Shown piece by piece: positions 5,810 through 57,048 of a stretch of DNA of 64,000 nucleotides (the stretch's first letter is position 1; every line of letters starts with the position of its first letter). The position numbers were made by a program, and so were the translations under genes. Below the pieces are notes generated by a model, which worked only from the letters and a program-made list of their open reading frames with translations, made no database searches and was not told where the DNA came from. Origin of the DNA: an uncultured SAR86 cluster bacterium. GTDB taxonomy: Bacteria > Pseudomonadota > Gammaproteobacteria > Magnimaribacterales > D2472. The stretch covers positions 42,217 through 106,216 of the forward strand of contig CACEZB010000001.1 in NCBI GenBank assembly GCA_902563835.1, read 5' to 3'.

Positions 5810-5830
5810 TATGTGTTTTTTTAATTTATA

Positions 5831-21875: not shown

Positions 21876-21906
21876 AAATTTATTCTACAGTAAACTCATG
21901 ACAATC

Positions 21907-22365
21907 ATGAAAAATTATAAAAAACTTCTTTTAACGTTCATCATTTGTATTACATTTGCTGTTAGTGCTGAAAATATTGAAGGAGAAAATGGTTGTAAAA
22001 CTAAATTAGTTCAAATGTTAATACCTGATTGGCCGAATGCTAATTACCAAGGCTATAGTGTTGTTAGCTTTAATATTAATAAAGATGGTGGAATCTCAGA
22101 ATCTAAGATTAAAGAATCTAAATGTGCTATAGATAGAGATGAAAACGGAATTATAGTTTTTAAGACATGCCCTTTTTTTAAAAAGGTTTCTTTTGCTGCA
22201 TCAAAATATTTGAAGTATAAAAAACCTATTAATAAAGAAGGCTTATCCTGCTCCATTAAAAATCATGAATATAGATATAATTTTTCTTTATATAATATTG
22301 AGATTGAAGATAATAATTTTCTTTTAAGAAAAGAATATGAAGCAATGAGGTATGACTCTAAATAA
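21907..22365 (+). CDS. secreted protein with TonB-C-terminal-like domain
   Basis: Signal peptide from the internal ATG at 21907. The segment ...PDWPNANYQGYSVVSFNINKDGGISESKI resembles the TonB_C fold. Confidence 0.45.
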   Translation: MKNYKKLLLTFIICITFAVSAENIEGENGCKTKLVQMLIPDWPNANYQGYSVVSFNINKDGGISESKIKESKCAIDRDENGIIVFKTCPFFKKVSFAASKYLKYKKPINKEGLSCSIKNHEYRYNFSLYNIEIEDNNFLLRKEYEAMRYDSK

Positions 22366-22373
22366 TAACAGAG

Positions 22374-22766
22374 TTACTTAATCCTCAACGAAGCACATAA
22401 TTTATTACCCGTGGGGTCTCTTAGGTAAGCTAAATACCATTTTAATTTACCATAATCACGAATCCCTGGAGGGTCTTCAATTGAAGTTCCCCCATGATCC
22501 AGTCCTGCTTGATGCCATGCATCGCCCTGCTCAGGATCTTTTACACTAAACCCTATCGTGGCACCATTAGATACTGTTGCCGGCTCATTATCTATCGGCT
22601 CAGTTAAGATAAACCCTATTCCGTCTAGATTATAAAAATATCTTTTTTGGCCTGTTGCATTAGGAATCATCTTGGCAGGTTCTACACCTAATGTTTTAAG
22701 CAAATTATCATAAAAAATTTTTGATTCTTCTATATTGTTTGTACCGACCATTACATGACTAAACAT
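22374..22766 (-). CDS. VOC (glyoxalase/bleomycin-resistance/dioxygenase) family protein
   Basis: 130 aa with a single VOC module pattern. Confidence 0.65.
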   Translation of the reverse strand: MFSHVMVGTNNIEESKIFYDNLLKTLGVEPAKMIPNATGQKRYFYNLDGIGFILTEPIDNEPATVSNGATIGFSVKDPEQGDAWHQAGLDHGGTSIEDPPGIRDYGKLKWYLAYLRDPTGNKLCASLRIK

Positions 22767-22781
22767 AGCATCACCCCTTTA

Positions 22782-23693
22782 TTAAAATAAATTAATTAAT
22801 GAATAAGAAAATATTAGAGTAAATGTCCACAAAACAAAAGCTACAGAAAATGTTCTCATATCTATCTGCTTGATTGCCTCTAAACTAATCTGGGCCCCAA
22901 TACAAAAAAGAGCTGCAACTAAAAATATCTGACTTATTGAGTCCAATGCCAATAAAGTTTGCTCTTCAAAATTTAATACTGTTCCTAATACAATTGCTAA
23001 GATAAATATAAAAACGAACATTGGGAATTTCGGTTTTGCGTTCTTTGCATCTTTATAAAAAATACCAAGAATTATTATCAATGGTATTAACCAAATTGTT
23101 CTTCCTAGTTTTAAAGTAGTAGCTGTTTCTAAAGCATCCCCACCGAAAGCCATTGCAGCGCCTACAACTGAACTTGTATCATGAATTGCCATTGCTGCCC
23201 ATGCGCCAAAACTCACATCAGTCATACCTATGCTGTTTCCAATTAATGGGAATAGCGCTATTGCCAAAGCATTAAATGAAAAAATAATAGCCATAGAAAC
23301 TAACAATTCTCTTGGTTTTGCTTTTATTAATGGAGAAATTGCTGCCATTGCTGTCGCGCCACAAATTGCAGTCCCAGACGTTATCAAAAGAGCAAGTCTT
23401 TTATCTGTGTTAAAGATTTTTCCCAATAAGAGTCCTGCTAAAAACACAACAAGTACAAAAATTGTAATGTATGGAAAATATATAGCAGTTATTTTTAAAG
23501 CGCTGGATGCTGATATGGTTAAACCTAAGATAACTACCCCTACTTGAAGAAATTTTGTTCCAATTGATTTGCTAATAAAGTTATCTGGTAATTTGAAAAT
23601 TAATGCAAACGCCATCCCTGTCACTAAAGCCAATAATGGGGATCCTATTAGAATTACTAAAAATGCTAACAGTATTCCTGTGTAAAGCTTCAT
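22782..23693 (-). CDS. YeiH/UPF0324-family (putative sulfate exporter family) membrane protein
   Basis: 303 aa with about 9-10 TM segments and a YeiH-like sequence pattern. Confidence 0.6.
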   Translation of the reverse strand: MKLYTGILLAFLVILIGSPLLALVTGMAFALIFKLPDNFISKSIGTKFLQVGVVILGLTISASSALKITAIYFPYITIFVLVVFLAGLLLGKIFNTDKRLALLITSGTAICGATAMAAISPLIKAKPRELLVSMAIIFSFNALAIALFPLIGNSIGMTDVSFGAWAAMAIHDTSSVVGAAMAFGGDALETATTLKLGRTIWLIPLIIILGIFYKDAKNAKPKFPMFVFIFILAIVLGTVLNFEEQTLLALDSISQIFLVAALFCIGAQISLEAIKQIDMRTFSVAFVLWTFTLIFSYSLINLF

Positions 23694-24532
23694 TTAGTAT
23701 GTTCTATTAACAAAGTTGGAACATTGTGAGTGTGAGATTTTATAGTGGCTACCAAGGTATTTTCTTTTAAGCCATGTTTAATATCAGTTATCTCTACACC
23801 TTCCTTGGTCAGCCTTTCATGAGCTTTTTCAATCGATTCAACCTCCCAGGCCAAACCCCATAAACTATCTAATGAATCCTTGTCATCTTTCTTTTCAACC
23901 ACCTCTATGGTGGTCTTATTTAATCTGAAAAATAGCATCCTGCTATTCCAATGTTCTATCACTTTATCTAGAGCAAGCCTGATATCAAATTCATTTTTAT
24001 AAATATCTATAAACCCATCAGCATCATTTGTATTAATAACTACATGATCTAATTTATTGAAAGCGGTATCTGGATATGATTCTATGGACGGGAGCTGCCC
24101 TTCGGTATGTTCAATAATAAAAGAAAAAAGCCCTCGAGTAAGTTCTGGCGGCAAAAAAAGATTTTTCCATTTCCTTATAGATTGATTATTAGAGTTTGTA
24201 CCTTCACCTAGCGATGGATCATTAACCATGTAGCCTTTATCTTTTAATACTCTAGTAACCTTATCAATATTTTCTGTACCAAAAACTATTCCTGTTAAAC
24301 CCTCGCCTTGTTTCTCTATCGCATCATTAACCAACGCAGCGCCTAATCCCACTCCTTTTGCAGATAAAAGTTCAAAATAAGTATTCTTAAAATTAAATAT
24401 TGAATTAGCAGTGCCTAGTTCTTTATGTTCGCCTTTCCATACTGGGTTAAGACCAAAGACTTTTTGATAATTTTTTTCTGCCTCATCAAGATCCTTAACG
24501 GCTACTATAAGATGGTCTAGTGTATTTATCAT
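23690..24532 (-). CDS. two-domain VOC-family protein
   Basis: 280 aa with two glyoxalase-like modules (LDHLIVAV..., LDHVVINT...). Confidence 0.65.
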   Translation of the reverse strand: MINTLDHLIVAVKDLDEAEKNYQKVFGLNPVWKGEHKELGTANSIFNFKNTYFELLSAKGVGLGAALVNDAIEKQGEGLTGIVFGTENIDKVTRVLKDKGYMVNDPSLGEGTNSNNQSIRKWKNLFLPPELTRGLFSFIIEHTEGQLPSIESYPDTAFNKLDHVVINTNDADGFIDIYKNEFDIRLALDKVIEHWNSRMLFFRLNKTTIEVVEKKDDKDSLDSLWGLAWEVESIEKAHERLTKEGVEITDIKHGLKENTLVATIKSHTHNVPTLLIEHTK

Positions 24533-25023
24533 TCCTTATGCTTATACCATTTTGGTATATCCCTTTTTTTCCAAGTGCAAAAATGGGATTTCTCTCCCAT
24601 ATAAAAATTCTGATAAGCAATTATTGAGTCATCACACTTATATTCATCAGGCATACATTGTGGTGGCTGTTTAAAAGGCATGTCTTTTTGAATATTTTCT
24701 GGTGGCTCTTCTAGAACATCTCTTAATAATAAATCTGTTGAATGTTTTTTTTCATACCGATAGGAGTATTCATCTGATAAAGCTACAAATAAACTGTATA
24801 ACCAATTGTATTGTGCCTCATTCTCTCTTGTCCAAACTGTACTTGGATGGTTTAAATGCGCTCTTTTATACATAGAAAGATTATCCGCTCTTTCATCACC
24901 GTCTCGCTCTCGATGGGCTGTTGATAACATTTGTGCATATTCCAATATCATTTTTACACAGTGCTTATCATTATGCTCAATAGCAGCAATTTTTGGATCT
25001 TTATTTAAATAAAAAATATTCAT
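24529..25023 (-). CDS. conserved hypothetical protein (family with the MNIFYL..DP...A..H.DKH..KMILE.AQ.L N-terminus, also seen in phages and large viruses)
   Basis: 164-aa ORF that overlaps the downstream VOC gene by 4 nt. Function is not established from the sequence. Confidence 0.5.
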   Translation of the reverse strand: MNIFYLNKDPKIAAIEHNDKHCVKMILEYAQMLSTAHRERDGDERADNLSMYKRAHLNHPSTVWTRENEAQYNWLYSLFVALSDEYSYRYEKKHSTDLLLRDVLEEPPENIQKDMPFKQPPQCMPDEYKCDDSIIAYQNFYMGEKSHFCTWKKRDIPKWYKHKE

Positions 25024-25054
25024 TAATTATTTGTTATATATTTTTGGTAAAAAT

Positions 25055-25279
25055 TTACGTGTGAGATTTATGAGTTCTACTTTCAATTTGTTCATTAATA
25101 CTTTTTGCGCAGTCGCTAGCGGCCGTCTCAAACAAGAAAGGGAAAATAGAATGAATAATTGCTGCGATTCCAGAGAATATCATCTTGATTCCATATTTAG
25201 CTGAACACCTTTGGTGTTGAAAATATGTCTCCCCGACTGCCTTTGGATGGCTAGTAAATAATTTAATAATTTTGTTCAA
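25055..25279 (-). CDS. small hypothetical protein
   Basis: 74-aa ORF with one hydrophobic segment. Confidence 0.4.
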   Translation of the reverse strand: MNKIIKLFTSHPKAVGETYFQHQRCSAKYGIKMIFSGIAAIIHSIFPFLFETAASDCAKSINEQIESRTHKSHT

Positions 25280-25311
25280 ACTAAAAATAGTCTACAGGAT
25301 ATTTTTCTTTT

Positions 25312-25590
25312 TTAAAAACCCTTTTCTTCCTTGAGCAATCTTCTTTTAGCCTTTTCACCCCCAGGCCCGCTATACCCACCAATATTTCCATCAGACCTAA
25401 TAGCCCTATGGCAAGGGATCTCAATCGGTCTCGGGTTTTTGCCACAAGCATTTGCAACTGCCCTAGATGAATTAGGGTGTCCAATTGCTATTGCTATTTC
25501 TTTATATGATTTGGTGTGTCCTCTTGGAATCTTTTTAAGTTGCGCCCAAACCTTTTTTTGAAAGATTGTTCCAGATATTCTTTTATTCAA
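25312..25590 (-). CDS. stand-alone methylated-DNA-protein-cysteine methyltransferase (MGMT/Ogt) C-terminal domain protein
   Basis: 92 aa with the active-site motif IPCHRAI and a helix-turn-helix region (SYKEIAIAIGHP). Confidence 0.75.
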   Translation of the reverse strand: MNKRISGTIFQKKVWAQLKKIPRGHTKSYKEIAIAIGHPNSSRAVANACGKNPRPIEIPCHRAIRSDGNIGGYSGPGGEKAKRRLLKEEKGF

Positions 25591-25596
25591 TTTAAT

Positions 25597-25917
25597 TTAC
25601 GATTTATATAAATTCACAATCGTAGTGCCTATTACAATTAAAAATAATCCTGCAACCGTTTGCCAATTTAAAGTTTGTTTGTAAAAAATATAGCTCAAAA
25701 TAGCTATAGAAAATATTCCTATTCCAGACCACGAGGCATAAACAATTGAGAGAGGAAGTTTTTGAGAAACGATTGCTAGAAAATAGAAAGACATTCCATA
25801 TGAAGTTAGCAATACTACTGTTGGGGTTATCTTTGTAAAGTTTTGTGATGCTGGTAATAGCATGGTGCCAACAACCTCTAATGCAATTGCTATAAAAAGC
25901 AATGCATAGACATTCAT
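25597..25917 (-). CDS. SMR-family small multidrug/quaternary-cation efflux protein
   Basis: About 106 aa from the ATG at 25917, with 4 TM segments. The conserved membrane Glu sits in TM1 (AIALEVVGT). ATGA overlap with the upstream GFA gene. Confidence 0.75.
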   Translation of the reverse strand: MNVYALLFIAIALEVVGTMLLPASQNFTKITPTVVLLTSYGMSFYFLAIVSQKLPLSIVYASWSGIGIFSIAILSYIFYKQTLNWQTVAGLFLIVIGTTIVNLYKS

Positions 25918-26282
25918 TTTTCTACCCAAGGAAGTTTATCTTCAATATAAATATCTGTCTTTGGCTCAAAGTCTTGAGGCTTATCTAAGCTACCAATAGT
26001 TATATAAATATAATCTGGGTATTCTTTAAGCATACAAACTAAAGGTGTCCCACATTCCTGACAAAAATATCGCGTCCCTTCAGAGGAGGAAATTAATTTT
26101 TTTGGTTCCCCTTCAATATATGTAAATCGTTCTAGTGGTATAGCCATCCAAGAAACATATGCGGCCCCAGAAATACGTCTGCACATAGAACAATGACAAT
26201 TTGAAGTATAGTAATTATCTGGTCCAAAACCGTAACGAATTGAGCCGCAAAAACACCCGCCTTGTATCACTTTTCCTACCAT
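25914..26282 (-). CDS. GFA-family zinc protein (second paralogue)
   Basis: Cys motifs CFCG...CHCSMCRR...CQECG. Confidence 0.7.
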   Translation of the reverse strand: MVGKVIQGGCFCGSIRYGFGPDNYYTSNCHCSMCRRISGAAYVSWMAIPLERFTYIEGEPKKLISSSEGTRYFCQECGTPLVCMLKEYPDYIYITIGSLDKPQDFEPKTDIYIEDKLPWVEK

Positions 26283-26310
26283 GATTGAATATCCATAACC
26301 AGATTAATTC

Positions 26311-26391
26311 TCATCGATTAAGAAACCACCAATACATAACCATCATAAAGATGATGACAAACCATAACATAAAGTTGCTATTCTTTTTCAT
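26311..26391 (-). CDS. possible 26-aa hydrophobic peptide (MKKNSNFMLWFVIIFMMVMYWWFLNR)
   Basis: Hand translation; below the ORF-track size cutoff. Overlaps the end of the preceding small ORF by 14 nt. Confidence 0.25.
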   Translation of the reverse strand: MKKNSNFMLWFVIIFMMVMYWWFLNR

Positions 26392-26527
26392 TTCTTAAAA
26401 ACATTAATGAAGCTGTTGCTAGTATAACAAGCATCAAAATAGTAAATTGTTTTTCTTCAACTATTGCAACAACAAGAATTGCCGCTGCCCACATAATTGA
26501 TTGAAAGATCTTTTGTTTTTTATTCAT
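26378..26527 (-). CDS. possible 49-aa two-TM peptide (MNKKQKIFQSIMWAAAILVVAIVEEKQFTILMLVILATASLMFLRNEKE)
   Basis: Hand translation. The ATG lies 5 nt after the stop of the 135-aa gene. A decayed copy of its first codons follows the paralogous 117-aa gene. Confidence 0.3.
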   Translation of the reverse strand: MNKKQKIFQSIMWAAAILVVAIVEEKQFTILMLVILATASLMFLRNEKE

Positions 26528-26532
26528 GACTT

Positions 26533-26940
26533 TCATTTACCCAGACCAGGAGATCCACCCTGAAAAATCTTTACTTTGTCTATTACTTTTCCGGACCTAT
26601 CGAAAGTCTTACCCTTTTTATTTTTGTTAAGAGTTTTTATTCGATTTATTTGATCTTTGGTAAAACCTCTCCTTCCTCTTGATTCAAATTTTTTTATGTC
26701 TGATTCTTTCTTTAAAACACTCATATAATCACAATAATGTCGTATTTCTTTTAATTTCCAACCTTTGGGTTGAAGAATTTTTTTAATGTCCTCATAAAAA
26801 ATAAAAGGGAATATTATTTTTTTAAATTCTTGAAACTTTTTAATTGAAATTATTCTTTCTAAATTTTGTTTTTTTTCTTCTAATTTTCTTTTTACTTCTT
26901 TTTTTTGAATCGGGGAAAGGTTTTTATATTTTTTCTTCAT
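26533..26940 (-). CDS. basic hypothetical protein, paralogue A, with C-terminal QGGSPGLGK motif
   Basis: 135 aa, Lys/Arg-rich. Homologous along its length to the 27006-27359 ORF (..ERIISIK../..ESIISTK.., DIKKIL..GW..EI). Confidence 0.55.
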   Translation of the reverse strand: MKKKYKNLSPIQKKEVKRKLEEKKQNLERIISIKKFQEFKKIIFPFIFYEDIKKILQPKGWKLKEIRHYCDYMSVLKKESDIKKFESRGRRGFTKDQINRIKTLNKNKKGKTFDRSGKVIDKVKIFQGGSPGLGK

Positions 26941-26952
26941 TGATTAACTATT

Positions 26953-26994
26953 ATAACCAAATCTACTCCACCGTAGTGGAGTTGAATTGGTTGT
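26953..26994 (-). repeat. J1 intercistronic element: imperfect 42-bp palindrome with a 7-bp stem and UACG-loop hairpin core
   Basis: ATAACCAA-atct-ACTCCAC-cgta-GTGGAGT-tgaa-TTGGTTGT. Positions 26955-26975 are identical to 27390-27410. Positions 26963-26980 read STTVE* on the minus strand. Confidence 0.7.
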
Positions 26995-27005
26995 ACCTGT
27001 TTTCT

Positions 27006-27359
27006 TCATGACTTTCCTTTACCCAAACCTGGTGATCCACCTTGATACGGTTTTGTATAAGTTTTTGGTTGTCCGGTCTTGTTTTTGGAATATTTAAATG
27101 AAGGGGATACCCTTCGAGTATCCTGTCCCTTTCCTATACTTTTTGGTTTAGATAATTTCGATATTTGTTCCCTCGACCAACCCAACTCCATTAGTGAATC
27201 ATGAAGTATTTTTTTTATATTATCTCGACGATTGATTTTCTTATCCTGTAATTTAGTTGAAATTATTGATTCCAACTGAGTTATTAACTCCTCTAAATTC
27301 TTATTTTTGATATGACCATCTTTATTAAGATAATCTTTAAGATAACCCTTGATATCCAT
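27006..27359 (-). CDS. basic hypothetical protein, paralogue B, with C-terminal QGGSPGLGK(GKS) motif
   Basis: 117 aa. The C-terminal motif codons differ from paralogue A only at synonymous sites. Confidence 0.55.
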   Translation of the reverse strand: MDIKGYLKDYLNKDGHIKNKNLEELITQLESIISTKLQDKKINRRDNIKKILHDSLMELGWSREQISKLSKPKSIGKGQDTRRVSPSFKYSKNKTGQPKTYTKPYQGGSPGLGKGKS

Positions 27360-27387
27360 ACTTATTTTTTACACCTAAATAACTGGT

Positions 27388-27432
27388 ACAACCAAATCTA
27401 CTCCACCGTAACGGAGTGTCCATAACCAAATT
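27388..27432 (-). repeat. J2 intercistronic element: hairpin copy plus flanking AACCAAAT direct repeats
   Basis: The 21-bp stretch aaccaaatctactccaccgta is shared with J1. Hairpin at 27400-27417. Positions 27398-27415 read SVTVE* on the minus strand. Positions 27419-27432 repeat 26292-26305 (13/14). Confidence 0.7.
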
Positions 27433-27446
27433 GTCAACTTTCCCCA

Positions 27447-28304
27447 TTATTTCTTAATTTGTTTATTTACTAGTTTTATTTTGTCTACATTTAGACCCTT
27501 AACATTTACTAAATTACTAAAGATGCTAGCAAAAAGTCTAATCGAGTAGTTTTCAATCTCATCTAAGAGGAAACTATACTCCGGATGAAGTTCAAAGAAC
27601 AAAAAACTATCAAACTCTTCCATTGCGACTCTTGAAGAGTTTTCTTTTACCCTGTCTCCAAATTTATTTGCTTTTCCAATATAGAGTTGGTTTTCTTTCT
27701 TGTTATTTAAGATGTAAACCACATTTGTTCTCGATGAATACTTTTTTAGTTCAGATTTTTTTAACCATCTGTCTGAATAGGAAATAAAAATTTTATCTTT
27801 TTGTTTTTTCTTTTTACTGTCTTCCCAAAAAGCAAATAAATTTTTATCCTCAAGAAAATAAAACATCTCATCAAAGTCAGTCTCTTGCTTAGAAAGTACT
27901 TTTACTCTAAAAATATTTTCTTTTAAGTGAACAAATTCGAGAAGTTCTTTTATTTTTGGTTGTGCTTTATTTCTTGTGGAGGCATAACTGTAGATCATTA
28001 ATTTTCTTAATGCCTTTAAGGTATCGAGTTCGTTTTTCCAATATATTTGGAGCACATCCCTAACAGGGTATTTAACATTAGATCTTTTTTTTGATTTGCT
28101 TGAATTATCAATACTGACTAATCGTATTTTTGCATCAAAGGTTTTGTTTTTAATTTTTAGTTTTATCGATTTTATTCTTTCTTTTTTTGTGAGTTTAAAG
28201 TGCTTTATATACTCTGGATAAACTGCTTTTTGAAGAGTAAACCCGTAATAAAAAAATGTATATCTAGGTATTACATAACTGGAACTTAAAGCAGGTTTGA
28301 CCAT
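27447..28304 (-). CDS. GIY-YIG-domain nuclease with unassigned Lys-rich N-terminal region of about 190 aa
   Basis: The C-terminal segment VVYILNNKKENQLYIGKANKFGDRV...LLDEIENYSIRLF matches the GIY-x(9-11)-YIG-x(7)-R...E..N layout (compare UvrC GVY..LYVGKAKNLRKRV). This is about nt 27519-27725. Confidence 0.6.
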   Translation of the reverse strand: MVKPALSSSYVIPRYTFFYYGFTLQKAVYPEYIKHFKLTKKERIKSIKLKIKNKTFDAKIRLVSIDNSSKSKKRSNVKYPVRDVLQIYWKNELDTLKALRKLMIYSYASTRNKAQPKIKELLEFVHLKENIFRVKVLSKQETDFDEMFYFLEDKNLFAFWEDSKKKKQKDKIFISYSDRWLKKSELKKYSSRTNVVYILNNKKENQLYIGKANKFGDRVKENSSRVAMEEFDSFLFFELHPEYSFLLDEIENYSIRLFASIFSNLVNVKGLNVDKIKLVNKQIKK

Positions 28305-28323
28305 TTTTTATTCGACGGTTGCA

Positions 28324-28347
28324 GAATAAGTGCGAGTAGTGATTTCG
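28324..28347. repeat. left copy of a perfect 24-bp inverted repeat
   Basis: gaataagtgcgagtagtgatttcg is the exact reverse complement of 28941-28964. Imperfect extension to 28314 (acggt...). Confidence 0.9.
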
Positions 28348-28367
28348 TTTATCGTGTTCATTTCCAT

Positions 28368-28796
28368 TTAAAATTTGTTTCCTTTGATTGTTTCTTTTAT
28401 TAGATTCTGGGTTATGTTTATCCACTCCACTTCTTTAATTAGTTTACATTTACCTTTTAAAGATCCGTTCCCCAATCGTTCAAGATAAAGCGTCTCTCTG
28501 TTTAATGAATAATAAGAGTCATATAACTTATCTATGTGCTTTAGATGTATACCGCCTTCGCCTACAACCTTATATACTTTGCCTGAAATTTTATGAAACT
28601 TATATACGCCCACTTCAAAGGTATTGTTTTTTATTGGTTTTGTATTTACTACAAAATATTCTTGATAATCTGCTTCTAACTTATTTTCATTGCCTTCCTT
28701 TCTCCATTCATCATCTATGTCACATTCAATCCAAGTCGTTTCACCATGAGCATGGAAATTGATTATAAAAATTAAGCAAATTAAAAATTTTTTCAT
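28368..28796 (-). CDS. small secreted hypothetical protein
   Basis: 142 aa with an N-terminal signal peptide (MKKFLICLIFIINFHA). The whole gene lies between the 24-bp inverted repeats. Confidence 0.55.
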   Translation of the reverse strand: MKKFLICLIFIINFHAHGETTWIECDIDDEWRKEGNENKLEADYQEYFVVNTKPIKNNTFEVGVYKFHKISGKVYKVVGEGGIHLKHIDKLYDSYYSLNRETLYLERLGNGSLKGKCKLIKEVEWINITQNLIKETIKGNKF

Positions 28797-28940
28797 ATCT
28801 TATTCTTACATACTAATAAGTTAGTTTCATCCTTGAGATTTTTGTCTTGTAAGTTTTCTGTTCTTTTTGAGGATAAGCAACTAAATAATCACTTCTGCAA
28901 TTAAGAATAAAAGTTAAATATGTATCGTTGATGCGTGATG

Positions 28941-28964
28941 CGAAATCACTACTCGCACTTATTC
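28941..28964. repeat. right copy of a perfect 24-bp inverted repeat
   Basis: cgaaatcactactcgcacttattc. Overlaps the J3 remnant. Confidence 0.9.
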
Positions 28965-28978
28965 CACCGTAGCAGAGT
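28959..28978 (-). repeat. J3 element: third UACG-loop hairpin / GlmS-end-like remnant
   Basis: The minus strand reads tct gct acg gtg gaa taa (SATVE*). The hairpin is ACUCUGC-UACG-GUGGAAU with 6 of 7 pairs (2 wobble). Confidence 0.55.
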
Positions 28979-29098
28979 GTTCTTACCCCACCCATAATTC
29001 TTCACTATTTCTGCGGTATTTAAAAAGGTTAATGATTGGTTGCTTAAATTACTCATAATTATAGTGCTGTATATCCAAATTATGATATTGATTTAAAA

Positions 29099-29464
29099 TC
29101 AAGATAGTAACCAAAACGCCAAAAGACTAATATAGAAAATCTGTATTATCACAAGAAGACTGTCAATAAGACTATCAATCGAACCTGTAAATTTATTATT
29201 TATGCCAACAAGGTCTAAAACTTCTTGAAGCAATCTAAGAAAAAATAAAAAAAACAATGGTATTACTAATCCATTTGGTCCCGCATACGTAATAGTGTTG
29301 TATAGCAAAGGGGTATTATTTATCAGATCAGAGGATACTAGCGAGACATAAATCCAAGGGGCAGAAAACATGGCAAATAAAAGAATAAACCCGTAAGTAA
29401 TAATCGCACCTATGGCACTGGTAAGAAATCTAGAAAGAAATTTTCTAATCTGCTTAATATCCAT
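29099..29464 (-). CDS. hypothetical membrane protein
   Basis: 121 aa with about 3 TM segments. Confidence 0.5.
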   Translation of the reverse strand: MDIKQIRKFLSRFLTSAIGAIITYGFILLFAMFSAPWIYVSLVSSDLINNTPLLYNTITYAGPNGLVIPLFFLFFLRLLQEVLDLVGINNKFTGSIDSLIDSLLVIIQIFYISLLAFWLLS

Positions 29465-29544
29465 TTCTTAATAAGAGGTTCACGATTTTAGTTTGATTGT
29501 GTTATTGGTTAAGTAAAAAAGTAATTTGGTTTTGATATAAACCA

Positions 29545-30000
29545 TCAATAAATTAAAACACAATAATTTAACTCTGTTTCCGCTTCATCGTATTGTTCTT
29601 TGGTTATAGGCAACAAATTTTCAAAAGGAATTGGGTGTGGTTTTATTCTGGGTGGGTCTTGATAGTTTAATATTGCGTATTTTCCTGTGAATTGTATTCC
29701 GTTTTTTGTTTCAGCAATAAATTCTAGAGTTGGTGCAACACCAGGACCTTGTGCTTCCCATGGCAAACAATACTCATCTTCTCCTATCATTCGACAATAC
29801 AATGGCGGCATAACATCAACATCAACATGGTTATTTAAAAAGGTCATGCTAATCGCTGGTTGTATTGTCATCATGTAGTAAGTACGATTCATCTCAGCAA
29901 TCGAATAAGTTACAGAACATCTAATATCTTTTTCTCCTCCATCTTCGTGAGCAAATAGATTAATAGATAAGAGCAATGTAAATAGAACAACGTTTTTCAT
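29545..30000 (-). CDS. small secreted hypothetical protein
   Basis: 151 aa. The signal peptide ends ...NLFA and is followed by HEDGGEKD. Contains 4 Cys. Confidence 0.55.
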   Translation of the reverse strand: MKNVVLFTLLLSINLFAHEDGGEKDIRCSVTYSIAEMNRTYYMMTIQPAISMTFLNNHVDVDVMPPLYCRMIGEDEYCLPWEAQGPGVAPTLEFIAETKNGIQFTGKYAILNYQDPPRIKPHPIPFENLLPITKEQYDEAETELNYCVLIY

Positions 30001-30150
30001 AAAAATATTTTGCCATAACTCTTTATAAATGTCCTATAAGTACACATAAAGGTCCGCAACAAGTCTCAACATCCCCTTGTGACTTCCTCTAACACGAAAA
30101 AATAGGTGAAATTTTTAGGGTAGTTTTTACCAGGGTTAAATTTTAGTGGT

Positions 30151-30176
30151 TTTTAAAACCCCCGCAGAATGCGAGG
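30151..30176 (-). terminator. candidate rho-independent terminator, probably the displaced ancestral glmS terminator
   Basis: Minus-sense CCUCGCA-UUC-UGCGGGG (7 pairs, one G.U that pairs only in this sense), then GUUUUAAAA. It starts 23 nt after the stop codon of the glmS-end remnant. Confidence 0.5.
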
Positions 30177-30199
30177 TTAAAACTAATTGTTGTTTAAAT

Positions 30200-30221
30200 T
30201 TACTCCACTGTGACTGACTTG
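30200..30221 (-). repeat. displaced copy of the glmS 3' end (last 6 codons plus stop), acting as an att-like direct repeat
   Basis: ttactccactgtgactgacttg versus 31726-31747 ctactccacagtgactgacttg is 20/22 identical. Both differences are silent (Thr third position; TAA versus TAG). Confidence 0.85.
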
Positions 30222-30225
30222 AATG

Positions 30226-30240
30226 AAACAGAGAATTAGA
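30226..30240. repeat. inner inverted repeat, left copy (AAACAGAGAATTAGA)
   Basis: 14/15 match to the reverse complement of 31707-31721. Both copies sit exactly 4 nt inside the 22-bp direct repeats. Confidence 0.75.
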
Positions 30241-30280
30241 TTTATCCCTTATGTCTACTGACTTCTTCATTGCTTTTTTT

Positions 30281-30386
30281 TTGACCAAACCCTACCTGCT
30301 TTTGCAGTAACCTCGTTGACCAAACCGGTTTTATAGATATTTCTTCCATTTTATACATTATAACCGTTGTTATTGTTTGACCAATC
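30281..30386 (+). repeat. three direct copies of TTGACCAA(A/T)C (30281, 30316, 30377)
   Basis: ttgaccaaacc occurs twice and ttgaccaatc once, in the non-coding arm next to the left att-like repeat. These are candidate arm-type or regulator binding sites. Confidence 0.45.
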
Positions 30387-30414
30387 GTCCTATATAAGTT
30401 TGTTATAATTTTTA

Positions 30415-31656
30415 ATGGTTATGAAAAAAATAATAGTTCTCAATATTCTTGTCCTTCTTGCTGGTTGTGGTCCATCGCAGGAAGAGAGGGTGAATATTGC
30501 TCTAAATGCTTGCGCCGTTATGGGTGAATCGAAACAATCAGATTCATTGTTTCGCATGCAAACCATGGTTGATGCGCGAGAAAAGTTAGGTGGTGAAGGG
30601 TTTTCGGGAGGGGATGACGCAATCTTAGAGGCATTTGAATTTGGAATTTGTTCAGAGTTAGTATTGAACGAATCCTATGATGAACTTCTTCTATCTTTAA
30701 AAGATGCTAAGCGCGAAAGAGAGAGAATAGCGGCAGAGAAATTGGCAGAAGAAAAGAGAATAGAGGCAGAAAAACTGGCAGAAGAAAAGAGAATAGAGGC
30801 AGAAAAACTGGCAGAAGAGAAGAGAATAGAGGCAGAGAGGCAAAGAATTGCCGATAGTAAACCTACAGTAAAAGAAGAGTTCTATGGCAACGGTAGATTA
30901 AAAAGCAGGACAAATTACCAACCCGTACTGAATGGAGGAAAAAAACATGGTCTTTTTGAGTTGTTCTACAAGAGCGGTCAATTACAGTTAAAGCAAAACT
31001 ACAGAGACGGAAAAGAAGACGGTGTTTATGAGGAGTACTACGAAAATGGTCGAGTAAGTGTACGGACTGTTTTTAAGAATGGAAAACGTGAAGGTCCTTA
31101 TGAGGAGTATCATGAAAATACTCAATTGTGGGTACAAACTGTTTTTAAGAATGGGAAAATTGAAGGTGATTATTTTCAATACGACAAGTACGGTATTGTA
31201 AAAGCACAGATTAGTTTTAAGAACGGAAAACGTGATGGTCCTTATATAGGTTACTGGGATAAAGGGGGGGTAAGAGAAATGGGTAATTACAAGGAAGGAA
31301 AACGTGATGGTCATTTTTGGTTTTATGGAGCAAAAGGCACTCGTTCATCTATGGTAGATTGGGAAGAAGATACTTTCTATAAGATTAACATTGAAGAAAA
31401 ACTAAAAGGTTATTTTAAAAACGGTTTCTTCTATCCATTAGAAAAAGAAGGTATTTACAAGAATGGATTGCGTCATGGTATTCATAAAACCTATGCGGAT
31501 TACTACACGGAGGGTGAAACTCTGTTGACTTGGAAAGGAGAATACAAAAACGGAAAGTTAGATGGTCTAACTTTTGGTTATGACGGCAAAAGAGAATATG
31601 TAAAGAATTGTTACAAAAACGGTGATGAAATAATTATGTCCTACTGCAAAAAGTAA
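30415..31656 (+). CDS. lipoprotein with MORN-variant (YwqK-like) repeats and a coiled-coil linker
   Basis: Lipobox LLAGC. More than 8 repeats of the Y.NGk..G....Y type. AEKLAEEKRIE occurs 3 times. The start may instead be the ATG at 30421. Confidence 0.7.
   Translation: MVMKKIIVLNILVLLAGCGPSQEERVNIALNACAVMGESKQSDSLFRMQTMVDAREKLGGEGFSGGDDAILEAFEFGICSELVLNESYDELLLSLKDAKRERERIAAEKLAEEKRIEAEKLAEEKRIEAEKLAEEKRIEAERQRIADSKPTVKEEFYGNGRLKSRTNYQPVLNGGKKHGLFELFYKSGQLQLKQNYRDGKEDGVYEEYYENGRVSVRTVFKNGKREGPYEEYHENTQLWVQTVFKNGKIEGDYFQYDKYGIVKAQISFKNGKRDGPYIGYWDKGGVREMGNYKEGKRDGHFWFYGAKGTRSSMVDWEEDTFYKINIEEKLKGYFKNGFFYPLEKEGIYKNGLRHGIHKTYADYYTEGETLLTWKGEYKNGKLDGLTFGYDGKREYVKNCYKNGDEIIMSYCKK
30733..30831 (+). 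repeat. 33-bp x 3 in-frame tandem repeat encoding AEKLAEEKRIE
   Basis: gcagaRaaaYtggcagaagaRaagagaatagag is repeated head to tail, with partial copies on both sides. Confidence 0.9.
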
Positions 31657-31683
31657 TCAATTGCTTTTTTGTAAAAAAGGGAG

Positions 31684-31725
31684 AAAAAAATGACAGAATC
31701 GTGATTTCTTATTCTCTGTTTTGTT
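31684..31725. terminator. candidate bidirectional terminator between the convergent MORN gene and glmS
   Basis: ACAGAAT...ATTCTCTGT stem (7 pairs plus a 2-nt bulge). It is flanked by A7 on one side and TTTGTT on the other, so there is a U-tract in both senses. Confidence 0.45.
31707..31721. repeat. inner inverted repeat, right copy (TCTTATTCTCTGTTT)
   Basis: Reverse complement AAACAGAGAATAAGA. Partner of 30226-30240. Confidence 0.75.
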
Positions 31726-33552
31726 CTACTCCACAGTGACTGACTTGGCAAGATTTCTTGGTTGATCAATATCGGTGCCCCTTAAAAGGGCAACCTCATA
31801 AGAAAGAATTTGAAGTGGAATGGTGTAAATAATTGGAGTTAAAAGAAAATCACATTTAGGCATATTAATAACCTGTCCTGATTTTAAATCCATTGTGATA
31901 GAAGGATCAGCAAAAACATACAGGGTGCCGCCCCTAGCCTTAACTTCTTCGAGGTTTGAAACAAGCTTTTCAGCTATTTCGCTCTCTGGAGCTAATGCAA
32001 TAACTGGCATTTCTTCATCAATTAATGCCAAAGGTCCATGTTTTAACTCGCCGGCCGGATAAGCCTCAGCATGAATATAAGAGATTTCTTTAAGCTTAAG
32101 AGCGCCTTCTTTTGCAATGGGATAGAAGATACCTCTTCCTAAAAATAAAGCATTATCTTTGCTTGCTATTGCAGGCGCTATCTCAAGAATTTTATCTTTT
32201 AATTTTAAGGTCTCATTTACAGTATCAGATAACGATCTCATTGCTGTAATAACACGAGTCCTTAATTTAGGGTTTTTACCCCTACTCTTTGCGAGCGCAA
32301 GAGAAAGCAGCATTAATGCAGCTAGTTGAGTGGTAAATGCTTTGGTTGAAGCAACGCCTATCTCAGGGCCGGCATTAGTAAAAATAGAATAATCAGATTC
32401 TCTTGCTAAAGAGCTAGTCGGCACATTGCAAATTGTTAGCGTTGATAAATAATCTTTTTCTTTTGCATATCTTAATGCAGCAAGTGTGTCTGCTGTTTCT
32501 CCTGACTGAGATATTGTTACCAATAGAGAATCTTCGTCAACATGTGGATTTCTATATCTATATTCTGAAGCATAATCAATCTGGGTTGGCAGCTCTGCGA
32601 TAGCAGAAAACCAGTTTGCAGCAACCCTTCCTGCATGCAAGCTCGTGCCGCAAGCAACAATTTGGATTCTTTTTACTTTTTCAAATATTTCAGATGACCC
32701 TATACCAAAGATATTATCTAATACATCATCGCCACCAACTCTGCCATCGATTGTATTTAGAATTGCATCAGGCTGTTCATATATTTCTTTTTCCATGAAA
32801 TGTTTATATTCGCCTTTAGAGGTTGCCTGATTAGAAATGTCAATTTGAGAAATCTCTCTTTCGACTTTATTTTTTGACTGATCATAGATTGTAAATTCTT
32901 CAGATGAGAGCTCAGCCACATCTCCATCTTCTAAAAAAATAAATTCATTTGTTAGCTGAGCTATAGCAAGAGGATCTGATGCAGCTAAAAACTCATCTGT
33001 TCCTATTCCAATTAGTAGTGGCGATTTGTTCCTAGCAATAATTATATTTTTGTCATCTTCTTTATCTATTGCTGCAATTGCATAAGCGCCATCAAGTTTT
33101 TCTTTAGTTAAATACATCGAGTCCAGCATTGAATTGCCCTTGGCTAAAAAATACTCAAGCATATGGGCTATTAATTCTGAGTCTGTTTGAGAAGAAAAGC
33201 TATAGCCCTCCTTTTTTAAAAATTCTTTTAAATCAAGATAGTTTTCAATAATTCCATTGTGAACAATGTAGACTCTTTCATTTGACTTATGAGGATGAGC
33301 GTTTTCCTCTGATGGTTCTCCATGAGTTGCCCATCTAGTATGAGCAATCCCCAGCTTACTTTTTGGCTTTTCGGAGATCATCTTTTCTTCTAGTAATTTA
33401 ACTTTTCCCAAAGTTCTTAAATGAGCTATTTGATTATTCTGATGTAGCGCGATCCCGGCAGAGTCATAACCTCGATACTCCATTTTATGAAGCCCTTGAA
33501 CAAGAAGCTTTCCTACATTTCTGTTAGAAGCAGCAGCTATGATTCCACACAT
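31726..33552 (-). CDS. glmS: glutamine--fructose-6-phosphate aminotransferase
   Basis: 608 aa. N-terminal MCGI (Cys2 nucleophile), two SIS domains, C-terminal ...LAKSVTVE. Confidence 0.97.
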   Translation of the reverse strand: MCGIIAAASNRNVGKLLVQGLHKMEYRGYDSAGIALHQNNQIAHLRTLGKVKLLEEKMISEKPKSKLGIAHTRWATHGEPSEENAHPHKSNERVYIVHNGIIENYLDLKEFLKKEGYSFSSQTDSELIAHMLEYFLAKGNSMLDSMYLTKEKLDGAYAIAAIDKEDDKNIIIARNKSPLLIGIGTDEFLAASDPLAIAQLTNEFIFLEDGDVAELSSEEFTIYDQSKNKVEREISQIDISNQATSKGEYKHFMEKEIYEQPDAILNTIDGRVGGDDVLDNIFGIGSSEIFEKVKRIQIVACGTSLHAGRVAANWFSAIAELPTQIDYASEYRYRNPHVDEDSLLVTISQSGETADTLAALRYAKEKDYLSTLTICNVPTSSLARESDYSIFTNAGPEIGVASTKAFTTQLAALMLLSLALAKSRGKNPKLRTRVITAMRSLSDTVNETLKLKDKILEIAPAIASKDNALFLGRGIFYPIAKEGALKLKEISYIHAEAYPAGELKHGPLALIDEEMPVIALAPESEIAEKLVSNLEEVKARGGTLYVFADPSITMDLKSGQVINMPKCDFLLTPIIYTIPLQILSYEVALLRGTDIDQPRNLAKSVTVE

Positions 33553-51879: not shown

Positions 51880-55581
<3,702 letters not shown>

Positions 55582-55582
55582 T

Positions 55583-56929: not shown

Positions 56930-57048
56930 TTATGATTCTCCAGTAAAAGTAAACATTTGTTGATTTAAGATTAATTATATTATCCGTTAACTTTTATATA
57001 TAACTATTATATTATCTTATGATTATATATTATTCACAACAATAGATT

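What the first reader, a model, noticed from the sequence alone, without database searches (positions are those of the whole stretch)
26311..28304. Candidate undescribed gene module: GIY-YIG nuclease with a novel N-terminal region, two paralogous basic proteins and two micro-ORFs
Five co-directional ORFs lie in 2 kb on the minus strand. (1) A 285-aa protein whose last ~90 aa carry the GIY-YIG layout (VVYIL-x8-LYIGKA-x7-R...LLDEIENYSIRLF). Its Lys-rich first ~190 aa match nothing I can name. This is the reverse of the I-TevI-type domain order. (2, 3) Paralogous basic proteins of 117 and 135 aa with a helix-rich N-terminal half, a GW-containing helix and a disordered Lys/Arg tail ending in QGGSPGLGK. 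(4, 5) Overlapping 49-aa (two-TM) and 26-aa (one-TM) hydrophobic ORFs that follow directly and appear translationally coupled. The location is a known integration hotspot. The combination of a nuclease, small DNA/RNA-binding-like proteins and membrane peptides fits the general pattern of defence, addiction or homing modules. It matches no named system that I recognise.
Basis: inference. Interest (0 to 1): 0.75.

Follow-up and report, generated by a model that had tools for sequence, protein, structure and literature searches.

The report
Gene cassettes stacked behind glmS
The five ORFs are not one gene module but neighbouring, independently inherited gene cassettes inserted one after another at the last codons of glmS; one cassette carries an uncharacterised DNA-cutting enzyme that has spread between very distant marine microbes.

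Summary
All five ORFs exist at the stated coordinates. The 285-aa protein is a real but divergent GIY-YIG nuclease: Y197, Y208, G210, R218, E251 and N264 are invariant in 24 homologues. Its "unknown" N-terminus models as a B3-like DNA-binding pseudobarrel.

About 15 independent loci encode a homologue of the 285-aa protein. None also encodes a 117/135-aa homologue, and the reverse holds too.

The ORFs lie in an array downstream of glmS. Seven copies of the glmS end ACNGTNGARTAR (Thr-Val-Glu-stop) occur in the window, all on one strand, against 0.22 expected. They divide the region into cassettes:
- The 285-aa gene is a single-gene cassette. It is 95-97% identical to copies in genomes whose core genes are only 67-79% identical.
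- The 117/135 pair is a separate unit that recurs in other arrays.
- The two micro-ORFs belong to the next unit, together with GFA, SMR and Ogt genes.

The exchange point maps to the invariant AC of the Thr codon. That AC is also the dyad centre of the palindromic junctions in 22 of 22 cases. This suggests site-specific, serine-recombinase-like insertion, but no recombinase was found. The nuclease's function (defence cargo or selfish element) is inferred only.

The parts
31726..33552 (-). glmS, the host gene whose last codons are the insertion site
   Evidence: NCBIfam TIGR01135 E 5e-240. glmU and the atp operon follow upstream (same order in L139).
31726..31737 (-). Core J0, ACTGTGGAGTAG: the true glmS end (Thr-Val-Glu-stop)
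30212..31725 (-). Cassette A: a 413-aa MORN-repeat lipoprotein (30415-31656, + strand) bounded by the inverted repeats AACAGAGAAT / ATTCTCTGTT
   Evidence: Pfam MORN_2; inverted repeat I2. The circular-form junction folds with z = -4.1.
30200..30211 (-). Core J1, ACAGTGGAGTAA. With the bases before it, it copies 22 nt of the glmS end (CAAGTCAGTCAC...).
   Evidence: repeat family D14
28971..30199 (-). Cassette B: 151-aa (29545-30000) and 121-aa (29099-29464) ORFs. They are preceded by a conserved non-coding leader of about 205-220 nt (29993-30217).
28959..28970 (-). Core J2, ACGGTGGAATAA
28320..28958 (-). Cassette C1: a 142-aa secreted-type ORF (28368-28796) between perfect 24-nt inverted repeats (28324-28347 and 28941-28964)
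   Evidence: inverted repeat I4. The circular-form junction folds with z = -13.1. In L007 the same ends carry a different cargo, a 402-aa protein.
28308..28319 (-). Core J3, ACCGTCGAATAA. It is identical to the real glmS end in L012 and L139, where the 285-aa gene directly follows glmS.
27410..28307 (-). Cassette C2, a single gene: the 285-aa protein (27447-28304). It combines a B3-like DNA-binding N-domain, a helical linker and a C-terminal GIY-YIG nuclease. The ATG lies 3 nt after the core.
   Evidence: The cassette is 97.3% identical to L139 and 94.9% to L012, against 67-79% for the core genes.
27398..27409 (-). Core J4, ACGGTGGAGTAG. With the bases before it, it forms a 7-bp hairpin.
26975..27397 (-). 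Cassette D: the 117-aa protein (27006-27359), with ends ATTTGGTTGTACCAG / CAGGTACAACCAAT
   Evidence: I6, D10. The junction folds with z = -8.1. The same ends flank 117+138/141-aa pairs in L123 and L040.
26963..26974 (-). Core J5, ACGGTGGAGTAG
26500..26962 (-). The 135-aa gene (26533-26940) plus its 3' tail. It is fused without a core to the next unit. Its own right end is missing here.
26311..26499 (-). Two small hydrophobic ORFs: the conserved 38-aa part of the '52-aa' ORF (MWAAAILVV...) and the 26-aa ORF. They belong to the distal unit.
   Evidence: L091 has a core directly upstream of the 38-aa ORF, then the 26-aa ORF, GFA, SMR and ogt. It is 89.7% identical to window 25176-26499.
21892..26310 (-). 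Rest of the distal unit: GFA (25914-26282), SMR (25597-25929), Ogt-like (25312-25590), Pyr_excise-like (24529-25023), VOC-type genes and others
21880..21891 (-). Seventh core-like site, ACTGTAGAATAA followed by ATTT. It is a possible distal end of the array.
   Evidence: Not confirmed in other genomes.

Best explanation
The 2-kb stretch is part of an array of small gene cassettes that spans at least 4.8 kb and possibly about 10 kb. The cassettes were inserted one after another into the last codons of glmS in a low-GC marine gammaproteobacterium of SAR86 type.

Each cassette starts with its own synonymous copy of the glmS end (N-GTN-GAR-stop). Each ends with a sequence that mimics the preceding glmS codons (..TCN GTN AC). 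Insertion therefore always rebuilds an intact glmS. Exchange happens at the invariant AC of the Thr codon. In cassettes with inverted ends, that AC is the exact dyad centre of an imperfect palindrome of about 50-60 bp, formed when the two ends are joined. This is the geometry of a serine-recombinase site with a central 2-bp crossover. The mechanism is inferred; the enzyme was not found and probably acts in trans.

The finding covers three separate units:
1. A single-gene cassette encodes a 285-aa protein with a B3-like DNA-binding domain and a GIY-YIG nuclease. It moves horizontally on its own. Most likely it is a stand-alone DNA-targeting nuclease kept as defence-type cargo (inferred).
2. A recurrent pair of small basic proteins shares a C-terminal ...QGGSPGLGK module. 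Its function is unknown.
3. Two small membrane ORFs belong to the next unit, together with GFA, SMR and Ogt genes.
For: Array in the window:
- ACNGTNGARTAR occurs 7 times, all on the minus strand, between 21880 and 31737. The expected count is 0.22, and 0 of 100 shuffles reach 7.

Same architecture elsewhere:
- The same cores and cassette ends, carrying other cargo and in other orders, occur in independent contigs: L007-L009, L012, L031, L033-35, L040, L064, L116, L123, L130, L133, L139 and L145.

Independence of the units:
- No homologue of the 117/135-aa proteins lies near any 285-aa homologue, and the reverse also holds.
- The 285-aa gene directly follows the glmS stop in L012, L139-L146.

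Horizontal transfer of the cassette:
- The 285-aa cassette is 97.3% identical to L139 and 94.9% to L012. The atp-glmU-glmS genes are only 78.7% and 67-74% identical.
- The family also occurs at guaA ends, at tRNA-Ile and tRNA-Met 3' ends and at the end of an integrase gene. Hosts are labelled SAR86, Methylophilales, Ca. Actinomarina and Thaumarchaeota.

Exchange point:
- Junction pairs with the same downstream cassette are identical from +1 onward (wobble position +3: 1.0) and drop at -1 (0.21).
- Pairs with the same upstream cassette stay similar up to -1 (0.65) and drop at +3 (0.2).

Inverted ends and dyad axis:
- 25 of 60 cassettes have end complementarity above the 95th percentile of non-self pairs. 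Only 2 of 44 adjacent-junction controls do.
- The dyad axis lies between the A and the C in 22 of 22 palindromic junctions.
- Circular-form junctions fold with z = -4 to -13.

Nuclease:
- The catalytic residues are invariant and Pfam GIY-YIG matches are found across the family.
- The AlphaFold2 model has pLDDT 79. The top Foldseek hits against the PDB are B3 / pseudobarrel DNA-binding domains, including LlaJI.R1-N (probability 0.97-0.99).
- The same N-domain is fused to an HNH nuclease in P0363.

Cargo of neighbouring cassettes:
- It is rich in fusions of a DNA-binding domain to a nuclease: MrcB_N+NucS_C, MrcB_N+NOV_C, HNH_4, T5orf172 and EEP.
Against: - No recombinase gene was found in the window. 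The ORFs of 1-24000 were only read by eye; those of 54877-63338 were scanned against Pfam. Only 64-150-aa proteins carrying a 'Recombinase' domain (PF07508) occur as cassette cargo, and no full-length enzyme turned up.
- The 285-aa cassette in the window, and cassette B, have no inverted ends (z = -0.75 and +0.4). The palindrome rule therefore covers only about 40% of cassettes.
- The junction-pair counts are small (14 and 20 pairs), and some pairs come from closely related contigs.
- Two junctions also fit a simple terminator pattern.
- A defence role has no direct support. PADLOC and PHROGs give no match, and no methyltransferase or immunity gene is linked.
- The Foldseek E-values are modest (6e-3 to 2e-2; TM-score 0.5 on the target).
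- The taxon labels of the MAGs and SAGs could not be verified.
Confidence: 0.7

Rival explanations
1. One reading: the five ORFs form one co-functional defence, addiction or homing module made of a nuclease, DNA-binding proteins and membrane peptides.
For: The ORFs are co-directional and closely packed, with overlapping stops and starts. The 117-aa and 135-aa types do recur together.
Against: The 285-aa family and the 117/135 family do not co-occur in about 23 loci. Cores separate the genes. In L091 the micro-ORFs are found with GFA, SMR and ogt, without the 135-aa gene. The 285-aa cassette is 95-97% identical across genomes that are 67-79% identical elsewhere and have different neighbours.
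Confidence: 0.04
2. The 285-aa gene is not passive cargo. It is a selfish nuclease element of homing-endonuclease or transposase-like type. Its product recognises sequences flanking its own gene, or the target gene's 3' end, and drives its own spread.
For: It is the only gene in small insertions bounded by direct repeats at five different targets: glmS, guaA, tRNA-Ile, tRNA-Met and the 3' end of an integrase gene. It is often the first cassette after the host gene. In four lineages the ORF is bracketed by direct copies of a tandem 11-12-nt motif that differs between lineages. These motifs could be binding sites for its B3-like domain. The family is distributed across phyla.
Against: Cassettes with unrelated cargo (lipoproteins, HIT, EEP and others) have the same cores, ends and exchange point, so a general mechanism acting in trans is sufficient. 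None of about 15 glmS arrays retrieved by a DNA pattern alone contains the gene. The glmS-type copies lack the flanking tandem motifs. Homing does not create target duplications.
Confidence: 0.2
3. The cassettes are moved by a tyrosine recombinase. This could be integron-like, acting on folded single-stranded hairpins, or lambda-like, using arm sites. It would not be a serine recombinase.
For: The arrays are integron-like: single, mostly co-oriented ORFs with hairpin-forming junctions. In L149 a Phage_integrase gene sits beside an array bounded by copies of its own 3' end. Layoun et al. 2024 (PMC10872708) place xerD in the Methylophilaceae island that ends at glmS. One class of cassettes has a conserved leader of about 205 nt next to the core, which could serve as an arm region.
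Against: The exchange point is confined to at most 3 nt around the AC. Positions -1 and +3 on either side differ between partners. That is hard to reconcile with a 6-8-bp identical overlap. The crossover lies at the dyad centre, which would be the hairpin loop, not a stem-proximal R box. There is no GTTRRRY core. IntegronFinder found no integrons in related Methylophilaceae genomes. No integrase is present in the window.
Confidence: 0.25
4. The repeats are only terminator or REP-like hairpins that happen to resemble the glmS end. On this view the variable region arises by ordinary homologous recombination or illegitimate events.
For: J4 and J5 fit a simple terminator pattern. Homologous recombination between conserved tails probably did reshuffle the 117/135 unit (D7, 49).
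Against: The similarity to glmS extends over about 21 nt and follows the codon structure, varying only at wobble positions. The same logic is seen with guaA ends (TIEWE-stop), tRNA ends and an integrase gene end. The switch point is sharp and sits at the dyad centre. glmS itself has no hairpin there.
Confidence: 0.05

Closest known systems
SCC elements and SCC composite islands of staphylococci (CcrAB/CcrC large serine recombinases; insertion at the 3' end of rlmH/orfX). Comparison from general knowledge.
   Same: Both insert into the last codons of a housekeeping gene and rebuild that gene. Both show direct repeats of the target end at every junction, inverted repeats at element ends, tandem accretion, and many units without their own recombinase. 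The crossover geometry here fits a serine recombinase.
   Different: The units here are 0.2-3 kb, usually one or two genes, against tens of kb. No ccr-like gene was found. The target is glmS (guaA or tRNA ends in related arrays). The hosts are streamlined marine bacteria.
Integron gene-cassette arrays (IntI, attI, attC)
   Same: Both are arrays of mostly promoter-less, co-oriented single-ORF cassettes. Each cassette has an imperfect palindromic recombination site, a precise boundary and a position next to a fixed entry site. In some genomes the first ORF starts 2-3 nt after the glmS stop, which suggests expression by read-through.
   Different: There is no intI and no GTTRRRY/RYYYAAC boxes. 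The conserved element is the centre of the palindrome, a mimic of the host gene's end, rather than its outer boxes. The crossover lies at the dyad centre. The entry site is inside a housekeeping gene.
Tycheposon hotspots and additive flexible genomic islands of marine and freshwater picoplankton (Hackl et al., bioRxiv 10.1101/2020.12.28.424599; Layoun et al. 2024, PMC10872708)
   Same: All are variable islands at fixed chromosomal sites in streamlined plankton. They contain repeated partial copies of the target's 3' end left by successive integrations. Many units lack an integrase. Layoun et al. describe an island ending at glmS in OM43 and Methylopumilus.
   Different: In those papers the repeats are tRNA fragments and the elements carry tyrosine or serine recombinases and replication genes. 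Repeats of the glmS or guaA coding end, a single-gene cassette grain and an AC crossover do not appear in the passages I read of these two papers (term searches only).
GIY-YIG nucleases fused to DNA-binding domains: I-TevI-type homing endonucleases and the GIY-YIG restriction enzymes Eco29kI, Cfr42I and Hpy188I (general knowledge)
   Same: The GIY-YIG catalytic motif set is present with canonical spacing. A separate DNA-recognition domain is present. The gene is free-standing and mobile.
   Different: The domain order is reversed compared with I-TevI. The recognition domain is B3-like, not NUMOD, zinc-finger or HTH. The gene is not in introns or phage genomes. No partner methyltransferase is present.
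B3-like (DNA-binding pseudobarrel) domains of restriction enzymes: EcoRII-N, BfiI-C, LlaJI.R1-N (PDB 6c5d)
   Same: The fold is similar by Foldseek (LlaJI.R1-N probability 0.98; plant B3 domains 0.97-0.99). The domain is used as a swappable recognition module on different nuclease domains: GIY-YIG here and HNH in P0363.
   Different: There is no detectable sequence similarity. The partner catalytic domain is GIY-YIG rather than PD-(D/E)XK, PLD or a McrB-type GTPase.
Tn7 insertion at attTn7 downstream of glmS (general knowledge)
   Same: It uses the same chromosomal landmark.
   Different: Tn7 inserts about 23 bp beyond glmS with a 5-bp duplication and carries tnsABCD(E). Here insertion is within the last four codons, the duplicated segment is 12-21 nt of coding sequence, and no Tns-like genes are present.

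Membership tests
GIY-YIG nuclease superfamily (Pfam PF01541) | GIY...YIG motif pair about 10-11 residues apart, then Arg about 10 residues later, a catalytic Glu and a conserved Asn | tested here: met
   Y197, Y208, G210, R218, E251 and N264 are invariant in 24 homologues down to 51% identity.
GIY-YIG nuclease superfamily (Pfam PF01541) | Significant match to the family profile | tested here: inconclusive
   The window protein scores 21.3 bits against a gathering score of 22.6. Fifteen of 24 members match at E<=0.01, best 3.4e-5. The remote relative P0368 scores 32.1 bits. A profile search against PDB sequences finds nothing. Foldseek gives only weak GIY-YIG hits.
GIY-YIG nuclease superfamily (Pfam PF01541) | Nuclease activity | not testable with these tools
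   Needs biochemistry.
I-TevI-type homing endonucleases | N-terminal GIY-YIG domain with a C-terminal DNA-binding region; located in group I introns or free-standing in phage genomes | tested here: not met
   The GIY-YIG domain is C-terminal. There are no homologues in IMG/VR, INPHARED or PLSDB.
B3 / DNA-binding pseudobarrel fold | Structural similarity of the N-domain to solved B3-type domains | tested here: inconclusive
   Nine of the ten best PDB hits are B3-type domains or LlaJI.R1-N, and so are 13 of the 50 listed; most of the others are Hsp90 N-domains with probability at or below 0.2. For the five best of these hits the probability is 0.84-0.99, E is 6e-3 to 3e-2, and TM(target) is about 0.5 for the small single-domain targets. 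The model's pLDDT is 87-95 over most of the domain. No sequence support.
Type II restriction-modification system | A cognate methyltransferase gene linked to the nuclease | tested here: not met
   The cassette holds one gene. Neighbours differ in every locus, and no methylase was seen next to it.
Known anti-phage defence systems (PADLOC-DB 2.0) | Match to a model of a known or candidate system | tested here: not met
   None of the eight proteins of the region gives a match.
Integron | intI integrase next to attI; attC sites with RYYYAAC/GTTRRRY boxes | tested here: not met
   No integrase was seen among the window ORFs. Junctions carry ACNGTNGARTAR, not GTTRRRY. IntegronFinder was negative in Methylophilaceae according to PMC10872708. 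The attC covariance model was not run here.
Integron | Array of compact, mostly single-ORF, co-oriented cassettes with palindromic sites and precise boundaries | tested here: met
Serine-recombinase integrative elements (SCC-like) | Dyad-symmetric site with the crossover at a central asymmetric dinucleotide | tested here: met
   Exchange is confined to positions -1 to +3 around the invariant AC. The dyad axis lies between A and C in 22 of 22 palindromic junctions.
Serine-recombinase integrative elements (SCC-like) | A serine recombinase gene associated with the elements | tested here: not met
   Only small proteins with a PF07508 'Recombinase' domain (64-150 aa) occur as cargo. No catalytic domain was found among the best 120 of 418 relatives. 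Whole genomes could not be searched.
Tycheposon | Integrase plus a replication module, flanked by a tRNA and a partial tRNA repeat | tested here: not met
   The window has no tRNA and no integrase or primase was seen. The repeats copy the glmS coding end.
Tn7-like transposon at attTn7 | tnsABC(D) genes; insertion about 23 bp downstream of glmS with a 5-bp duplication | tested here: not met
   The insertion point is inside the last codons. No Tns-like ORFs are present.

The most novel reading that the evidence does not exclude
The B3-like/GIY-YIG protein is itself the site-specific nuclease of these arrays. It would recognise the palindromic junctions or the host-gene end and cut at the central AC. 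GIY-YIG enzymes typically leave short 3' overhangs. Cassettes would then be gained, lost and exchanged by a nuclease-based system that needs no recombinase. This would explain why the same solitary gene sits at the 3' ends of glmS, guaA, tRNA genes and an integrase gene in bacteria and archaea.

A less radical version is more probable, at about 0.35. In it the arrays are an undescribed integron-like cassette platform of abundant marine bacteria, run by an unlinked serine-type recombinase.
Probability: 0.08. Interest if true: 0.9.

Novelty: new variant of a known kind. Interest (0 to 1): 0.6.

Why it matters
SAR86, OM43, Actinomarina and marine Thaumarchaeota are among the most abundant microbes in the ocean. 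They have tiny genomes and almost no classical mobile elements. How their hypervariable regions are built is an open question. A recent preprint states that the integration mechanism still has to be identified (10.64898/2026.04.03.716425).

This window and the related loci make that question concrete and testable. They give a defined site of 12-21 nt that mimics the end of a housekeeping gene. They place the exchange point at a single dinucleotide. They show palindromic cassette ends and direct evidence that a single-gene cassette moves between genomes about 20-30% divergent at the DNA level.

Separately, the 285-aa family is an uncharacterised pairing of a B3-like DNA reader with a GIY-YIG cutter. 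It works as one gene in very different hosts. That makes it a candidate new stand-alone restriction-type or homing-type nuclease.

Tried and rejected
Searches on the proteins of the region that gave nothing:
- PADLOC, PHROGs and NCBIfam gave no useful match.
- The PDB sequence-profile search with A1 gave only a chance hit.
- Foldseek of the 285-aa model against BFVD gave only weak GIY-YIG-type hits.
- The AlphaFold2 model of the 135-aa protein (pLDDT 75; helical with a disordered tail) had no structural neighbour.
- Rfam found nothing in 25000-32500.

Searches for the element in mobile-DNA collections that gave nothing:
- The 285-aa family and the junction motif are absent from IMG/VR.
- tblastn against INPHARED phages and PLSDB plasmids found nothing.

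The search for a recombinase failed:
- I read or Pfam-scanned the window ORFs.
- I followed the 65-aa 'Recombinase'-domain ORF of L116 with the last large protein search. All the best 120 of its 418 relatives are small proteins.

Other dead ends:
- RNAalifold on the conserved cassette leader gave a covariation term of about zero.
- The promoter scan found fewer sites than in shuffled sequence.
- Literature searches for SAR86 plus glmS or genomic islands found no description of these arrays.

Ideas considered and dropped:
- Tn7-type insertion, because there are no tns genes and the insertion point is wrong.
- XerCD/dif-type modules, because the sites do not look like dif.
- The weak repeat at 26272-26300 as a degenerate core. 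It is conserved in L091 as part of the distal unit, so its status is open.

Full report
**1. Observation.** All five ORFs are present on the minus strand exactly as described. The window is low-GC, about 33%. It contains the chromosomal origin region. glmS lies at 31726-33552. ORFs whose sizes and order fit glmU, the atp operon, parAB, gidAB and dnaA-dnaN-recF-gyrB follow (in this window these were not scanned against family models, but the atp-glmU-glmS order is Pfam-annotated in the related locus L139). The finding lies 3.4-5.4 kb downstream of the glmS stop.

**2. The 285-aa protein.**
- Pfam GIY-YIG matches residues 195-258 just below threshold.
- The family has at least 211 clusters in the large protein collection and 206 clusters at 50% identity. 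It is almost entirely of marine metagenomic origin, is conserved over its full length and is unnamed.
- In 24 homologues down to 51% identity, Y197, Y208, G210, R218, E251 and N264 are invariant, with canonical GIY-YIG spacing.
- Fifteen of the 24 match the Pfam model. A remote relative passes the gathering score.
- The AlphaFold2 model (pLDDT 79) shows a beta-rich N-domain, a helical linker and a beta-beta-alpha-beta-alpha C-domain.
- The best Foldseek hits in the PDB are plant B3 domains and the N-domain of LlaJI.R1 (probability 0.97-0.99, modest E-values). This is the DNA-binding pseudobarrel that several restriction enzymes use.
- The same N-domain occurs alone, and fused to an HNH nuclease. 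It therefore behaves as a swappable DNA-recognition module.

**3. The module does not hold.** I collected loci that encode homologues of the 285-aa protein. Their neighbours differ every time.
- In several SAR86-type contigs the gene directly follows glmS.
- In others it follows guaA, a tRNA-Ile or a tRNA-Met, or lies beside an integrase.
- It also occurs in contigs labelled Methylophilales, Ca. Actinomarina and Thaumarchaeota.

tblastn of all window proteins against all loci shows no 117/135-aa homologue near any 285-aa homologue, and the reverse also holds.

The 117-type and 135-type genes do recur side by side, in either order. They are sometimes in one cassette and sometimes split by a junction. 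The two share only a C-terminal module of about 50 residues ending in QGGSPGLGK. No fold or family match was found for them.

Contig L091 carries the 26-aa ORF and a 38-aa version of the '52-aa' ORF directly after a junction. The GFA, SMR and ogt genes follow. L091 is 89.7% identical to window 25176-26499. So the micro-ORFs belong to the next unit. The first 12 codons of the 52-aa ORF arise from a fusion with the tail of the 135-aa gene.

**4. What is really there.** The inter-ORF repeats are copies of the glmS end.
- ACNGTNGARTAR (Thr-Val-Glu-stop) occurs seven times in the window. All copies are on the glmS strand, between 21880 and 31737, against 0.22 expected.
- The same cores bound cassettes with other cargo in many independent contigs, retrieved both through proteins and through a DNA pattern.
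- The bases before each core also mimic glmS codons (..TCN GTN), so the similarity spans about 21 nt.
- Analogous arrays use the guaA end (T-I/V-E-W-E-stop), tRNA 3' ends and the end of an integrase gene.
- Cassette cargo elsewhere is rich in nuclease fusions: MrcB_N+NucS_C, MrcB_N+NOV_C, HNH, T5orf172 and EEP. Lipoproteins are also common.

**5. Mobility.** Against L139, the atp-glmU-glmS region is 78.7% identical while the 285-aa cassette is 97.3% identical. Against the SAR86 single-cell contig L012 the figures are 67-74% and 94.9%, with the high identity running from core to core. The cassette has therefore moved recently between diverged genomes.

**6. Mechanism (inferred).**
- Junction pairs that share the downstream cassette but differ upstream are identical from position +1, including the wobble positions, and diverge at -1.
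- Pairs that share the upstream cassette diverge at +3.
- The exchange point is therefore the invariant AC.
- About 40% of cassettes have inverted ends (25 of 60 exceed the 95th percentile of non-self pairs; the adjacent-junction control gives 2 of 44).
- When a cassette's own ends are joined, the palindrome's dyad axis falls between the A and the C in 22 of 22 cases.
- These joined junctions fold far better than shuffled sequence.
- A dyad-symmetric site with an asymmetric central dinucleotide as crossover is the signature of serine recombinases (general knowledge). A tyrosine recombinase with a 6-8-bp identical overlap fits less well.
- No recombinase was found, however. Only small 'Recombinase'-domain proteins occur as cargo.
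- The window's own 285-aa cassette lacks inverted ends. The 85%-identical variant in L145 has them.

**7. Function of the nuclease (inferred).**
- A one-gene combination of a DNA reader and a cutter, with no methylase, travels across phyla among other nuclease cassettes. The best fit is a stand-alone restriction-type defence gene, possibly modification-dependent.
- The main rival is a selfish, self-mobilising nuclease. Two observations support that rival: its solitary presence at five different target ends, and the lineage-specific tandem 11-12-nt motifs that bracket the ORF outside the glmS context.
- Neither view could be tested with the tools available.

**8. Comparison with what is known.**
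- The nuclease is a new domain combination within known superfamilies.
- The array resembles SCC composite islands, integron arrays and the tRNA-repeat islands and tycheposon hotspots of plankton.
- It differs in its target (the coding ends of glmS or guaA), in its grain (single genes), in the central-core palindromes and in the lack of a linked recombinase.
- I found no description of it in the searchable literature. That is not proof of absence.

**9. Verdict.** The module interpretation is refuted. What replaces it is an integron-like cassette array at glmS that contains a mobile nuclease cassette. This is moderately to highly interesting, but the function and the recombination enzyme remain unproven.

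Noticed in passing
window 29993-30217 (minus strand); also L034 (4 copies), L007, L009, L064, L139: A non-coding leader of about 205-220 nt directly follows the core in one class of cassettes. It is 83% conserved across cassettes with unrelated cargo. It ends in AAGGAG-N5-ATGGCARAATATTT just before the cargo start codon. It could be a shared expression leader or a recombination arm. There is no Rfam match and no covariation support.
   Followed up: partly
L116 930-1127, L057 276-470, L130 about 2524-2691 (all in core-oriented reverse-strand coordinates): Small cassette-borne proteins of 64-150 aa match the Pfam 'Recombinase' domain (PF07508) of large serine recombinases, but none of those examined has a detected catalytic domain. 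The family has at least 418 clusters in marine metagenomes. Members usually sit right after a core and before a lipoprotein gene.
   Followed up: partly
L015 9960-9980 and 10855-10875; L148 5948-5970 and 6867-6889; L013 9880-9945 and 10854-10870; L016 9868-9891 and 14886-14909: Outside the glmS context, the 285-aa homologue is bracketed by direct copies of a tandemly duplicated 11-12-nt motif. The motif differs between lineages: CCCCTACTAAT, CATTTACCACA, TGACACA..., AAGTGTACAAAT. These could be binding sites for its DNA-binding domain or the ends of a nested unit.
   Followed up: partly
window 21880-21891 (minus strand): A seventh core-like site, ACTGTAGAATAA followed by ATTT, lies just before a second GFA-family gene (21426-21875). 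If it is real, the array extends about 10 kb from glmS, and the GFA-SMR-Ogt block is itself a large cassette.
   Followed up: partly
L149 4100, 5957, 6876, 12539: Four copies of the last roughly 9 codons of a Phage_integrase gene bound successive units. One unit is the 288-aa nuclease homologue; others encode HSDR_N_2 and HNH proteins. This is an array built on the integrase's own 3' end.
   Followed up: partly
window 30715-30836 and 31009-31315 (+ strand, inside the 413-aa ORF): The MORN-repeat lipoprotein of cassette A contains 33-nt tandem repeats that encode (AEKLAEEKRIE)n and 72-nt MORN repeats. MORN-type lipoproteins recur as cassette cargo in L012, L116 and L130.
   Followed up: no
window 26926-27045 compared with 26518-26563; L123 10836-11661: In L123 and L040 the 117-aa and 138/141-aa genes abut within one cassette. 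In the window a 66-nt junction (right end + core + left end), flanked by the direct repeat ATGAAGAAAA, separates them. This suggests recombination between the conserved 3' tails of the two genes (D7, 49, 80).
   Followed up: partly
window 25312-25590 and 24529-25023: The distal unit carries a 92-aa protein that matches only the Ogt methyltransferase domain (TIGR00589, E 3e-29). It also carries a 164-aa protein with a weak Pyr_excise (pyrimidine-dimer glycosylase) match. Both are small DNA-repair genes within the variable region.
   Followed up: no
L012 (SAR86 single-cell contig), about 5250-5915: The atp genes and the glmS fragment lie on opposite strands, and only a 177-aa C-terminal part of glmS is open. 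This may be a chimeric or inverted single-cell assembly at this point.
   Followed up: no
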